The notes beneath the pieces were generated by a model that was given only the letters and a program-made list of their open reading frames with translations, was not told where the DNA came from and did no database searches. Shown piece after piece: positions 319-1,127 of a stretch of DNA of 4,215 nt. The DNA lies in IMG/VR virus record IMGVR_UViG_2534682294_000022; one strand, given 5' to 3'. Each line of letters starts with the position of its first letter. Position 1 is the first letter of the stretch. A program made the position numbers and the translations under genes. The DNA is from a virus. Taxonomy: Duplodnaviria; Heunggongvirae; Uroviricota; Caudoviricetes.

Positions 319-714
319 ATGGCGAAACCTTTTACACACGAACAGCGTGAAGAACTGAAGGCCCGAATTATCGGGCTGGTACGCAAAAATGAACGCATGA
401 CGATATCACAACTGGAGAGAGCGACGGGAGCAGGCTGGCATTCAGTCAGACGTTGCCTTGTGGATGTACTGGCTTGCGGCGATTTATACATGCCCGGTAA
501 ATACGGTGTTTTTACATCAGAACAGGTGTATCGCGTATGGCGTAAGGCAGCGGAGAAAACAACCGACCAGACATTGATTCGAAAGTTACCAGACGGAGAA
601 ATACGCCGCTACGACAGACAACAGAACATAATCTGTGGCGAGTGCCGGAAGAGTGAAGTTATGCTGCGTGTACTGGCGTTCTATCAGGGCAATTTTCAGG
701 AGGCGGTATTGTGA
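319..714 (+). CDS. hypothetical prophage protein, 131 aa, possible helix-turn-helix segment (TISQLERATGAGWHSVRRCL)
   Basis: ATG 319 preceded by GGAGG 309-313 at 5 nt spacing. ORF is co-directional with neighbours. The HTH call is from sequence pattern only. Confidence 0.65.
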   Translation: MAKPFTHEQREELKARIIGLVRKNERMTISQLERATGAGWHSVRRCLVDVLACGDLYMPGKYGVFTSEQVYRVWRKAAEKTTDQTLIRKLPDGEIRRYDRQQNIICGECRKSEVMLRVLAFYQGNFQEAVL

Positions 715-770
715 GTGAATTAGCTATCAGGCTTCAATTGTCGCTGGCATTCACATCAAAGGAGAAGAGC

Positions 771-1127
771 ATGGAAATAAAACCAGAAGATGAGTTAAGC
801 AATATCGTTTTATTTCCGGTAAAAGAGGATGACCCACGTAATCAGGTTAATTTTCTTTATGAGCCATCGGAAAGAGCATATTGTCATCACGCCTCTGTTC
901 GGGTTGACGAAAAAGAGCGTCAGGTCCGCTGTAAAATCTGCGGTGCAGTTGTGGAGCCATTTGACTGGATGCTCTCTGTGGCGAAAAGAGAAACCAGACT
1001 GGCAGATGATGTAAGGATCTTGCGCCAGGAGGAACGGGAAAGGCGGAGAAATATAGAAAAGCTAATTCAGATTGAGCGTAACGTGAAAGCGCGGATACGC
1101 AGGGTGACAAAATCCAGAACTGAATAA
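771..1127 (+). CDS. hypothetical protein, about 118 aa, zinc-ribbon-like C-H-H...C-x-x-C motif with Arg/Lys/Glu-rich C-terminal tail
   Basis: ATG 771 preceded by AAGGAG (about 759-764) at about 6 nt. The track's GTG 711 start has no SD and overlaps the upstream stop, so 771 is preferred. Motif YCHHASVRVDEKERQVRCKICG, then tail RLADDVRILRQEERERRRNIEKLIQIERNVKARIRR. Confidence 0.6.
   Translation: MEIKPEDELSNIVLFPVKEDDPRNQVNFLYEPSERAYCHHASVRVDEKERQVRCKICGAVVEPFDWMLSVAKRETRLADDVRILRQEERERRRNIEKLIQIERNVKARIRRVTKSRTE

What the first reader, a model, noticed from the sequence alone, without database searches (positions are those of the whole stretch)
711..1127. Zinc-ribbon-like protein with highly basic coiled-coil tail; track start is probably wrong
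The track starts this ORF at GTG 711, which overlaps the upstream stop and has no SD. An in-frame ATG at 771 sits 6 nt after AAGGAG and is the more likely start. The product combines a C-H-H...C-x-x-C cluster (YCHHASVRVDEKERQVRCKICG) with an Arg/Lys/Glu-rich helical tail. That architecture is typical of small nucleic-acid-binding or protein-inhibitor proteins and is somewhat reminiscent of Lar-type restriction-alleviation proteins. The resemblance is loose and unverified.
Basis: partly seen in the sequence, partly recalled or inferred. Interest (0 to 1): 0.5.

Follow-up and report, generated by a model that had tools for sequence, protein, structure and literature searches.

The report
Uncharacterised phage zinc-ribbon coiled-coil protein
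This is a real but ordinary 118-residue early gene of lambda-like prophages, starting at ATG 771 and not at the annotated GTG, whose product has a small zinc-binding unit and a long basic coiled coil; it belongs to a very widespread phage protein family whose function nobody has tested, and it is not a Lar-type restriction-alleviation protein.

Summary
The ORF, the Cys/His cluster and the Arg/Lys/Glu-rich helix are all present. The real gene is 771-1127 (118 aa). PGAP calls that start, homology between genomic contexts begins at the SD (window 743), and 20 related loci share the same start behind a GGAGG-type SD.

C38-x-H40-x13-C54-x2-C57 is conserved across 103 relatives at 21-50% identity. 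AlphaFold (pLDDT 88) gives an acidic flexible N-terminus, a three-stranded zinc unit and one helix (63-117) with an unbroken heptad repeat and a conserved basic surface motif (ExNxKARxRR).

The family is large (1,362 clusters at 50% identity) and phage-borne. It has no Pfam, NCBIfam, PADLOC or PDB match and falls in function-unknown PHROGs 1621/8538/4865. Lar is excluded: no PF14354 hit, and hhalign against RalR gives 1.9%.

In divergent enterobacterial prophages the gene usually sits between ninG/rap and Q. Lambda NinH occupies that slot, but the two are not homologous.

My best guess, at low confidence, is a dimeric zinc-ribbon/coiled-coil nucleic-acid-binding accessory protein of the early DNA-transaction gene cluster. 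Interest is modest: a conserved hypothetical protein whose corrected start is already in RefSeq.

The parts
698..703 (+). AGGAGG, an SD-like hexamer 7 nt upstream of GTG 711, inside the 3' end of the DUF977 gene.
   Evidence: Direct reading.
711..713 (+). GTG, the annotated ('track') start. It overlaps the DUF977 stop TGA at 712-714. It is not the family start.
   Evidence: In L003/L004 a 1-nt indel puts the equivalent GTG out of frame. In ArgO145 and many other loci in-frame stops lie between it and the ATG. The exact 138-aa form is recorded on 116 contigs, against at least 999 for the 118-aa form.
743..770 (+). Conserved 5' leader of the mobile gene module, including the Shine-Dalgarno AAGGAG at 759-764.
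   Evidence: Homology with phage ArgO145, which has a different upstream gene, begins at window 743. The SD is conserved in all E. coli-clade loci.
771..1127 (+). Coding sequence of the 118-aa protein (stop TAA 1125-1127). RefSeq WP_001302146.1, 'hypothetical protein'. Member of phrog_1621.
   Evidence: PGAP coordinates. phrog_1621 E = 4.8e-54 over residues 1-117. dN/dS 0.19-0.30.
771..878 (+). Residues 1-36: acidic N-terminal segment (net -5, pI 4.3) modelled at lower confidence. It carries two family-wide hydrophobic motifs: N11-[IV]12-[IV]13-x-[FL]15-P16 (nt 801-818) and hydrophobic 26-x-28.
   Evidence: Per-column conservation in 103 sequences. pLDDT 69-77. Charge.
879..956 (+). Residues 37-62: CHCC zinc-ribbon-like unit. 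Knuckle C38-x-H40, strands 43-46, 51-54 and 60-61, knuckle C54-x-x-C57. Conserved V45, D46, E47, R50, G58, D62.
   Evidence: Invariant C38/C54/C57, and H40 in 95 of 103. pLDDT about 94. Sub-threshold Zn_Ribbon_TF match (18.6 bits against a cut-off of 29). Best local fold match is the TFIIB N-terminal ribbon 1pft, 28 columns, E = 1.
957..1121 (+). Residues 63-117: one continuous alpha-helix beginning with the conserved P63-F64-D65 (D/E62 just before it). It has an unbroken 3-4 hydrophobic repeat at positions 77, 81, 84, 88, 91, 95, 98, 102, 105, 109, 112 and 116, so it is a predicted coiled coil.
1062..1106 (+). Residues 98-112: the most conserved segment outside the zinc ligands, L98-[KR]-[RK]-E-E102-[RK]-N104-x-[KR]106-A107-R108-[IL]-[RK]110-R111-A. 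The basic and Asn residues lie at surface (b, c, e, g) heptad positions, making this the candidate ligand-binding face.
   Evidence: L98 96/103, E102 86, N104 87, K/R106 100, A107 74, R108 91, K/R110 92. The motif alone retrieved 525 relatives from IMG/VR.
319..714 (+). Upstream neighbour: DUF977 / 'Ren-like exclusion protein' gene. It is context only and not a conserved partner.
   Evidence: Pfam DUF977 3.2e-72 and phrog_142. It is absent next to the homologue in ArgO145 and in all divergent loci.
1176..1388 (+). Downstream 70-aa gene (phrog_4659). It is co-transferred with the target only within part of the E. coli clade.
   Evidence: Present after the target in L001 and ArgO145, absent in L003/L004 and in divergent loci.

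Best explanation
Window 771-1127 encodes a genuine 118-aa early (delayed-early operon) protein of lambdoid prophages, translated from ATG 771. It has three parts:
1. An acidic, flexible N-terminal peptide carrying a conserved N-[IV]-[IV]-x-[FL]-P motif.
2. A small Cys-His-Cys-Cys zinc-ribbon-like unit.
3. A helix of about 55 residues that forms a coiled coil, presumably a parallel homodimer. Its distal surface displays a conserved basic motif (ExNxKARxRR).

The gene belongs to a very large, phage-borne, functionally uncharacterised family (PHROGs 1621/8538/4865). Its usual home in enterobacterial lambdoid phages is the nin region between the junction endonuclease gene ninG/rap and the Q antiterminator gene.

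Most likely mechanism (inferred, not shown): zinc holds the head domain together, the coiled coil dimerises the protein, and the paired basic faces, possibly together with the zinc units, bind nucleic acid. On this reading it is a non-essential accessory factor in early phage DNA transactions (recombination, replication or local regulation). That would make it a positional, non-homologous counterpart of the dimeric DNA-binding protein NinH. The acidic N-terminal motif would dock a partner or mask the basic face.
For: Shown:
- Gene model and start and purifying selection.
- Zinc ligand set invariant in 103 sequences at 21-50% identity.
- Confident AF2 model, pLDDT 88, with three short strands plus a single helix 63-117.
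- Continuous heptad repeat 77-116.
- Family size: 1,362 clusters at 50% identity with E <= 1e-3, and 525 IMG/VR relatives found with one motif.
- All 103 aligned members fall in function-unknown PHROGs.
- Position: directly after ninG in 10 of 15 divergent loci, and no more than about 600 bp before Q in 13 of 15.
- A second subfamily lies next to DUF551, NinB, Dam, RusA and Q.
- Distant members sit in early or replication-type clusters of other phages, with DnaB, ribonucleotide reductase or integrase nearby.
- Lambda ninH lies immediately downstream of rap, and NinH is a homodimeric DNA-binding and DNA-bending protein (PMC7166090).

Supporting the nucleic-acid-binding inference:
- Residues 87-118 have net charge +6 and pI 11.5.
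- Surface positions N104, K106, R108, R110 and R111 are more conserved than most core positions, which implies a ligand-binding face and not mere dimerisation.
Against: - No experiment or characterised homologue exists, and every database name is 'hypothetical'.
- Oligomeric state and zinc binding are predicted, not measured. Multimer modelling was not possible with these tools.
- The hydrophobic a/d pattern continues through the basic motif, so the helices probably do not splay as in bZIP proteins.
- The zinc unit carries conserved acidic residues (D46, E47, D62, D65), which is unusual for a DNA-contact surface.
- The gene has no obligate neighbour and moves as a stand-alone module. The nin-region location may therefore reflect only where lambdoid phages keep accessory genes.
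- NinH co-occurs with it in one locus (L017), so it is not a strict replacement for NinH.
- A basic coiled-coil face could equally bind an acidic protein.
Confidence: 0.35

Rival explanations
1. Protein-binding host-takeover or anti-defence factor. The dimeric coiled coil and zinc unit form a scaffold. The conserved N-terminal N-[IV]-[IV]-x-F-P peptide and/or the basic face bind and inhibit a host protein, for example a defence, division or replication component, with no nucleic-acid binding involved.
For: - The gene is small, non-essential-looking and independently mobile, and sits in accessory regions of both early operons.
- A conserved short hydrophobic motif lies inside an acidic, low-confidence N-terminus, which is typical of docking peptides.
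- Conserved acidic residues on the zinc unit.
- TFIIB-type ribbons are protein-interaction modules (own knowledge).
- Weak coiled-coil similarity to DivIC, ZapB and FtsL.
Against: - No PADLOC hit, although PADLOC holds defence proteins and not anti-defence proteins.
- No characterised relative.
- The coiled-coil similarities are generic.
- The family occurs in phages of very different hosts, from 41% to 72% GC. That argues against a narrow host-specific target, though not against a universally conserved one.
Confidence: 0.3
2. Transcription modulator acting on RNA polymerase. The TFIIB-like zinc ribbon docks on RNAP and the coiled coil reaches into or along it, tuning early-to-late transcription near Q.
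For: - Sub-threshold Zn_Ribbon_TF matches in 14 of 103 members, best 1.3e-5.
- The best local fold hit is the TFIIB ribbon.
- Frequent position just upstream of Q.
- Other small zinc + coiled-coil proteins (the DksA/TraR family) bind RNAP (own knowledge).
Against: - All matches are below Pfam thresholds and cover only about 30-40 residues.
- The topology (ribbon, then a single long helix) differs from DksA/TraR, which has a helical hairpin followed by a C4 finger.
- The position next to Q is not universal (window, ArgO145).
Confidence: 0.08
3. Lar-type restriction-alleviation protein.
For: Only a shared generic feature: a small phage protein with a Cys-containing knuckle, located in an accessory region.
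Against: - No hit to PF14354 or to any NCBIfam model at E <= 1 for the protein, and PF14354 is not among the families matched by the 103 relatives.
- RalR/Lar itself scores 2.9e-14 against PF14354.
- hhalign of the family against RalR gives probability 1.9%.
- Different ligand pattern (CxH...CxxC against CxxC...CxxC), different length, and Lar has no coiled coil.
Confidence: 0.02
4. The annotated 138-aa product from GTG 711 is the real, or a significant additional, product in this particular context.
For: - GTG 711 is preceded by a perfect AGGAGG at a 7-nt spacing and overlaps the upstream stop (GTGA), an arrangement that permits translational coupling.
- The 20-codon extension is open, and a similar extension is open in L003/L004 from a different start codon.
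Against: - The extension is not conserved outside the DUF977 context.
- The 1-nt indel in L003/L004 changes which codon could start it.
- Stops interrupt it in ArgO145 and in many other loci.
- All family alignments and the PHROG profile begin at the ATG.
- An open run of 19 codons is expected by chance about 40% of the time (own estimate).
Confidence: 0.07

Closest known systems
PHROG families phrog_1621, phrog_8538 and phrog_4865 (all 'unknown function'); RefSeq WP_001302146.1 'hypothetical protein'
   Same: Full-length profile match: phrog_1621 E = 4.8e-54 over residues 1-117. All 103 aligned relatives hit phrog_1621 and 102 hit each of the other two. The RefSeq protein is identical in sequence and coordinates.
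   Different: Nothing differs. This is the family it belongs to, and the family has no assigned function, no Pfam model and no structure.
TFIIB-type zinc ribbon (Pfam PF08271 Zn_Ribbon_TF; PDB 1pft)
   Same: Two zinc knuckles flanking a small three-stranded sheet. A Cys/His/Cys/Cys ligand set like that of human TFIIB (own knowledge). Weak profile match over residues 37-73. Best local structural match.
   Different: The score of 18.6 bits is below the 29-bit cut-off. The first knuckle is C-x-H and not C-x2-C/H. The ribbon is followed by a 55-residue coiled coil and not by cyclin folds. There is no evidence of RNAP binding.
Lambda NinH (Fis-like nucleoid-associated protein mimic; PMC7166090)
   Same: Same genomic slot, immediately downstream of ninG/rap and upstream of Q in lambdoid phages. 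Small and non-essential-looking. NinH is a dimeric basic DNA-binding protein, as is proposed here.
   Different: No sequence or fold relationship. NinH is a helix-turn-helix protein, and no NinH hit was found. The two co-occur in Yersinia massiliensis locus L017.
Rac prophage Lar/RalR (Pfam PF14354 Lar_restr_allev)
   Same: A small prophage-encoded protein with a cysteine knuckle.
   Different: Not homologous. Lar is 64 aa with C-x2-C pairs and no coiled coil.
bZIP basic-region/leucine-zipper proteins (e.g. GCN4, PAP1) and arginine-rich RNA-binding motifs of lambdoid N proteins
   Different: The polarity is reversed: the basic segment is C-terminal to the zipper. The hydrophobic heptad continues through the basic segment. 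The bZIP signature N-x7-R is not met. The resemblance rests on my own knowledge and is a lead only.

Membership tests
phrog_1621 (uncharacterised phage protein family) | Significant full-length match to the family profile | tested here: met
   E = 4.8e-54, residues 1-117 against profile positions 1-120 of 134.
phrog_1621 (uncharacterised phage protein family) | Conserved C-x-H ... C-x-x-C ligand set and the C-terminal ExNxKARxRR motif shared with distant members | tested here: met
   C38/C54/C57 in 103 of 103. H40 in 95 of 103, with Cys in the other 8. N104 87, K/R106 100, R108 91.
Lar restriction-alleviation family (Pfam PF14354 / NCBIfam Lar models) | Match to the family HMM above threshold | tested here: not met
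   No hit at E <= 1 in Pfam or NCBIfam. PF14354 is not among the families matched by the 103 relatives. The control RalR scores 53.5 bits.
Lar restriction-alleviation family (Pfam PF14354 / NCBIfam Lar models) | Remote homology detectable by profile-profile comparison | tested here: not met
   hhalign of A4 against RalR: probability 1.9%, 25 columns covering only a knuckle.
Lar restriction-alleviation family (Pfam PF14354 / NCBIfam Lar models) | Alleviates type I (EcoKI) restriction in vivo | not testable with these tools
   Needs a plating assay of unmodified phage on r+ hosts that express the protein.
Zinc ribbon (TFIIB-type, Pfam PF08271) | HMM score above the gathering threshold | tested here: not met
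   18.2-18.6 bits against a 29-bit cut-off. 14 of 103 relatives give weak hits, best E = 1.3e-5.
Zinc ribbon (TFIIB-type, Pfam PF08271) | Two zinc knuckles donating four Cys/His ligands on a three-stranded antiparallel sheet | tested here: inconclusive
   The AF2 secondary structure (strands 43-46, 51-54, 60-61) and the ligand positions fit. The best local Foldseek hit is 1pft, but at E = 1. Model coordinates and metal geometry could not be inspected.
Zinc ribbon (TFIIB-type, Pfam PF08271) | Binds one zinc ion | not testable with these tools
   Needs ICP-MS or a PAR assay on purified protein.
Lambda NinH family (Pfam Phage_NinH) | Sequence homology to NinH / Fis-like HTH | tested here: not met
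   No Pfam hit. The family HMM does not hit P22 NinH.
Lambda NinH family (Pfam Phage_NinH) | Gene located immediately downstream of ninG/rap in the nin region | tested here: met
   Met for homologues in 10 of 15 divergent loci and in Klebsiella phage ST15-VIM1phi2.1. Not met in this window itself, where the gene follows DUF977.
DksA/TraR zinc-finger coiled-coil RNAP binders | Helical-hairpin coiled coil followed by a C4 zinc finger; match to the family HMM (zf-dskA_traR) | tested here: not met
   No Pfam hit at E <= 1. The AF2 topology is ribbon first, then one uninterrupted helix.
Known anti-phage defence proteins (PADLOC-DB) | Match to any defence-system HMM | tested here: not met
   0 families at E <= 1.

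The most novel reading that the evidence does not exclude
The family, at least 1,362 clusters across phages of hosts from 41% to 72% GC, could define a previously undescribed nucleic-acid-binding module. This would be a CHCC zinc ribbon fused to a dimeric coiled coil whose distal, still-zippered basic face (ExNxKARxRR) reads DNA or RNA, a 'reverse-polarity bZIP-like' design. It could act with junction-resolving enzymes (NinG/RusA) or at the early-to-late switch. Alternatively, its conserved N-terminal N-[IV]-[IV]-x-F-P peptide could be a new docking motif for a universally conserved host protein.
Probability: 0.15. Interest if true: 0.55.

Novelty: new member of a known kind. Interest (0 to 1): 0.3.

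Why it matters
For this window, the practical result is a corrected gene model (771-1127, 118 aa), and current RefSeq annotation already has it.

More broadly, this is one of the many very widespread phage 'dark matter' families. It has a clear, confidently predicted architecture: zinc unit, coiled coil and a conserved basic face. It has no Pfam model, no structure and no tested function.

It recurs in the nin region beside recombination and junction-resolving genes. It is also present in roughly a third of complete E. coli genomes (1,958 of 5,426 match the 551-bp query spanning the gene), including Stx-phage-rich O157 strains. That makes it a cheap and reasonable target for biochemical characterisation. 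Nothing here, however, points to a surprising or paradigm-changing function.

Tried and rejected
1. Lar/RalR homology. Rejected.
2. Homology to other small nin-region proteins (P22 NinF, NinY, NinH, NinZ) and to Rac YdaE. Only a generic CxxC knuckle (NinF, 9.3 bits) and a generic coiled-coil stretch (NinZ, 6.8 bits) turned up. hhalign against YdaE gave probability 0.1%.
3. Solved-structure relatives by sequence, with the single protein and with the profile. Only generic coiled coils.
5. Defence-system membership in PADLOC. None.
6. Informative domain fusions. The Ea22-like and DUF977 'fusions' read through the translated SD region and are stop-loss or long-ORF calls. The C-terminal extensions of distant members are heterogeneous and unrecognisable.
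7. An obligate partner gene. None was found. The target is the only window gene retained in divergent loci. ninG adjacency is frequent but not universal.
8. Strict slot exclusivity with NinH. Broken by L017.
9. RNA elements in the window. No Rfam hit. Promoter-like and terminator-like sites are not enriched over shuffles.
10. Literature. Searches for the accession, the PHROG ids, DUF977 and zinc-ribbon/nin-region terms found nothing relevant except the NinH paper.
11. The search for related loci with the 103-sequence alignment failed because no stretch was conserved enough. It worked with sub-alignments A2 and A6.
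Full report
**Context**

The window is a segment of an E. coli O157-type lambdoid prophage, with all genes on the + strand:
- C-terminal end of a DUF1627-like gene (to 303)
- DUF977 / 'Ren-like' gene (319-714)
- the target
- a 70-aa gene (1176-1388, phrog_4659)
- a 123-aa gene (1424-1795)
- DUF551 (1792-2154)
- DUF4222 (2242-2484)
- a 44-aa gene (2488-2622)
- excisionase (2641-2895)
- integrase (2929-4215)

**Observation**

- ORF 711-1127, 138 aa from GTG.
- The GTG overlaps the DUF977 stop (GTGA).
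- An in-frame ATG at 771 lies 6 nt after AAGGAG (759-764).
- The peptide YCHHASVRVDEKERQVRCKICG is there.
- An Arg/Lys/Glu-rich C-terminal half follows.

One detail is wrong. GTG 711 is preceded by a perfect AGGAGG (698-703) at a 7-nt spacing, so it does have an SD-like sequence.

**Start codon**

Five lines of evidence favour ATG 771.
1. RefSeq/PGAP annotates exactly 771-1127 (WP_001302146.1, 118 aa) in an identical O157 prophage.
2. phrog_1621 aligns from residue 21 of the long ORF at profile position 1.
3. In phage ArgO145 the gene follows a different upstream gene (Ea22-like). Nucleotide homology starts at window 743, which is the SD plus the ATG, and there is none around 711.
4. Across 20 loci from Escherichia, Shigella, Kluyvera, Erwinia, Yersinia, Photorhabdus, Phytobacter, Klebsiella phage and others, the equivalent codon is the shared start, 5-8 nt after GGAGG, GGGAGG or AAGGAG. 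In-frame stops lie just upstream in many loci. In L003/L004 a 1-nt indel puts the GTG-711 equivalent out of frame.
5. The exact 118-aa sequence is recorded on at least 999 contigs, against 116 for the 138-aa form.

A minor GTG-initiated isoform in this particular DUF977 context cannot be excluded, given its SD.

**Reality of the protein and the motif**

- dN/dS against homologues from three other contexts is 0.19-0.30.
- In 22 enterobacterial homologues (46-92% identity), C38, H40, C54 and C57 are invariant.
- A profile search of 1.84 billion cluster representatives found 1,362 relatives at E <= 1e-3 and 175 at E <= 1e-10.
- In an alignment of 103 of them (21-50% identity to the query), C38, C54 and C57 are invariant and position 40 is His in 95 and Cys in 8. 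H39 is not conserved.
- The ligand pattern is therefore C-x-H-x13-C-x2-C.
- Other conserved positions are V45, D46, E47, R50 (98/103), G58, D62-P63-F64-D65, L98, E102, N104, K/R106, A107, R108, K/R110 and R111.
- Two short hydrophobic motifs are conserved in the acidic N-terminus: N11-[IV]-[IV]-x-[FL]-P16, and hydrophobic residues at 26 and 28.

**Structure**

- AlphaFold2 with the 22-sequence alignment gave pLDDT 73.8. With the 103-sequence alignment it gave 88.0 and the same topology.
- Residues 1-36 have lower confidence (69-77).
- Three short strands (43-46, 51-54, 60-61) carry the two knuckles, at pLDDT about 94.
- One uninterrupted helix spans 63-117, at pLDDT 94-98.
- Hydrophobic occupancy across the family follows an unbroken 3-4 spacing: 77, 81, 84, 88, 91, 95, 98, 102, 105, 109, 112, 116. 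This is a canonical coiled-coil heptad running to the C-terminus. The only polar core position family-wide is the conserved E102. In the E. coli clade, positions 88 and 91 are also polar (E and R).
- The conserved N104, K106, R108, R110 and R111 fall on surface positions. Surface residues more conserved than the core imply a binding face.
- The charge is polarised: the N-terminus has net -5 (pI 4.3) and residues 87-118 have net +6 (pI 11.5).

**Comparison with known families**

- Pfam gives only a sub-threshold Zn_Ribbon_TF match (18.6 bits against a 29-bit cut-off). Among the 103 relatives, 14 give weak Zn_Ribbon_TF hits and the rest is coiled-coil noise.
- NCBIfam: nothing. PADLOC: nothing.
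- PDB by sequence, with the single protein and with the profile: only generic coiled coils.
- Foldseek against the PDB: the best hit is the TFIIB N-terminal ribbon 1pft over 28 columns at E = 1.
- BFVD: nothing below E = 0.3.
- All 103 relatives fall in phrog_1621, and 102 each in phrog_8538 and phrog_4865, all 'unknown function'.
- Every source name is 'hypothetical' or 'bacteriophage protein'.
- Literature searches found nothing on this protein.

**Lar hypothesis**

- Rac RalR/Lar, fetched from MG1655, scores 2.9e-14 against Pfam Lar_restr_allev.
- The target does not hit that model at E <= 1, and it is not among the families matched by its 103 relatives.
- hhalign of the family profile against RalR gives 1.9% probability over a 25-column knuckle.
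- The resemblance is limited to 'a small phage protein with cysteines'.

**Genomic position**

- The target is the only window gene retained next to homologues in divergent loci, so it is an independently mobile module.
- Clustering the flanking ORFs in those loci and annotating them shows a recurrent slot. The gene lies directly downstream of ninG/rap in 10 of 15 loci, with its ATG overlapping the ninG stop in several. It lies no more than about 600 bp upstream of a Q antiterminator gene in 13 of 15.
- Klebsiella phage ST15-VIM1phi2.1 shows NinE-NinG-homologue-YlcG-Q.
- That is the slot of lambda ninH, which lies 'immediately downstream of rap (ninG)' and encodes a homodimeric Fis-like DNA-binding and DNA-bending protein (PMC7166090).
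- The family HMM does not hit P22 NinH, NinY or NinZ. Only a CxxC knuckle of NinF scores, at 9.3 bits.
- NinH co-occurs with the homologue in Yersinia locus L017. The relation to NinH is therefore positional only.
- In the identical O157 prophage (L001) the gene also lies in the rightward early operon, between the replication genes and RusA/Q.
- In this window and in ArgO145 it lies instead in the leftward, integrase-proximal operon.
- A second subfamily retrieved from IMG/VR sits among DUF551, NinB, DUF1367, DUF968/HNH, Dam, RusA and Q.
- Distant members lie in early-type clusters of unrelated phages: runs of small genes in large phages, upstream of a GpA terminase, next to DnaB and ribonucleotide reductase, or just after an integrase and before a HerA-like helicase.
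- No partner gene is universal.

**Apparent fusions**

Proteins annotated as Ea22-like or DUF977 fusions (P0261, P0250, P0255) contain the translated SD region ('...LAFASKERS|MEIKPEDE...'). They are stop-loss or long-ORF calls and not domain fusions. In the commonest E. coli variant (P0007, 3,282 sequences) the family start codon is GTG, and gene callers extend it upstream. The C-terminal extensions of distant members are heterogeneous.

**Mechanism**

Shown:
- a real, selected early phage gene
- a conserved four-ligand Cys/His set
- a confidently predicted ribbon-plus-helix architecture
- a continuous heptad repeat
- a conserved basic surface motif
- frequent residence among recombination and junction-resolving genes and next to Q

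Inferred:
- zinc binding
- parallel homodimerisation
- use of the paired basic faces to bind nucleic acid

My preferred reading, at about 0.35, is a dimeric nucleic-acid-binding accessory factor of early DNA transactions or regulation. The acidic N-terminal motif would act as a docking or self-masking peptide.

Nearly as likely, at about 0.3, is a pure protein-binding host-takeover or anti-defence factor. Points in its favour are the conserved acidic residues on the zinc unit, the N-terminal peptide motif and the stand-alone mobility.

The remaining readings are unlikely: an RNAP-directed role through the TFIIB-like ribbon (about 0.08), a real 138-aa product (about 0.07), and Lar-like restriction alleviation (about 0.02).

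**Verdict**

The gene is an ordinary conserved hypothetical phage gene, and its correct model is already in RefSeq. It is a member of a large, catalogued but uncharacterised family. Interest is modest (0.3). It would rise if the basic coiled-coil face or the N-terminal motif proved to define a new nucleic-acid-binding or host-docking module.

Noticed in passing
window 1-4215 (junction within 1533-1950): The window is a three-part mosaic. Bases 1-305 are only about 81-83% identical to the O157 TR01 prophage (L001). Bases 306-1950 are 100% identical to it (a rightward-operon, nin-side module). Bases 1533-4215 are 100% identical to the integrase-proximal end of VT1-Sakai / YYZ-2008. The two 'parents' share an identical stretch of about 420 bp (orf123 3' end and DUF551 5' end). 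None of 5,426 complete E. coli genomes holds 80% or more of the window in one place. In strain FRIK944 the two halves lie 71 kb apart on opposite strands. This is either a prophage-prophage recombinant (inversion) or an assembly chimera.
   Followed up: partly
window 698-714: A perfect AGGAGG at 698-703 lies 7 nt before GTG 711, which overlaps the DUF977 stop (GTGA). This arrangement could support translational coupling and a minor N-terminally extended isoform in this context only.
   Followed up: partly
window 319-714: The DUF977 protein matches phrog_142, 'Ren-like exclusion protein' (E = 1.7e-43), and weakly matches a PADLOC mad1 model (E = 0.0066). It is a possible exclusion or defence-related gene directly upstream of the target.
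   Followed up: no
window 2151-2237: A short ORF between DUF551 and DUF4222 (MMNWPEAFTAVGVAIAVAFILYSLFRWG by my reading) looks like a single-pass membrane peptide. The ORF listing at 30 aa or more did not list it, and I did not analyse it.
   Followed up: no
L017:5813-6608 (Yersinia massiliensis): Here the gene order is ninG-ninH-homologue-ninY-Q. It is the only one of the 15 divergent loci examined where NinH and this family co-occur, which shows they are not strict alternatives.
   Followed up: partly
L039:4376-6542 and L040:1379-3474 (high-GC elements, JGI / IMG-VR): In two high-GC (66-72%) elements the homologue lies just downstream of a tyrosine integrase and a few kb upstream of a HerA-like helicase. 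This context is quite different from the lambdoid nin region.
   Followed up: no
L007 (contig labelled MAG: Collinsella sp.), L012 (MAG: Chitinophagales), L013 (Ursidibacter maritimus): Short contigs assigned to non-enterobacterial organisms carry homologues that are 92-93% (L007, L013) or 52% (L012) identical to the E. coli protein. L007 also has E. coli-like DUF977 flanks. These are probably contaminating enterobacterial prophage DNA in those bins and assemblies.
   Followed up: no
window 829-1014 (+) and 847-1188 (-): Two overlapping ORFs, one alternative-frame (61 aa) and one antisense (113 aa), lie inside the target. The 61-aa ORF recurs only in near-identical E. coli loci, and the target frame is under purifying selection. 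They are most likely not genes.
   Followed up: partly
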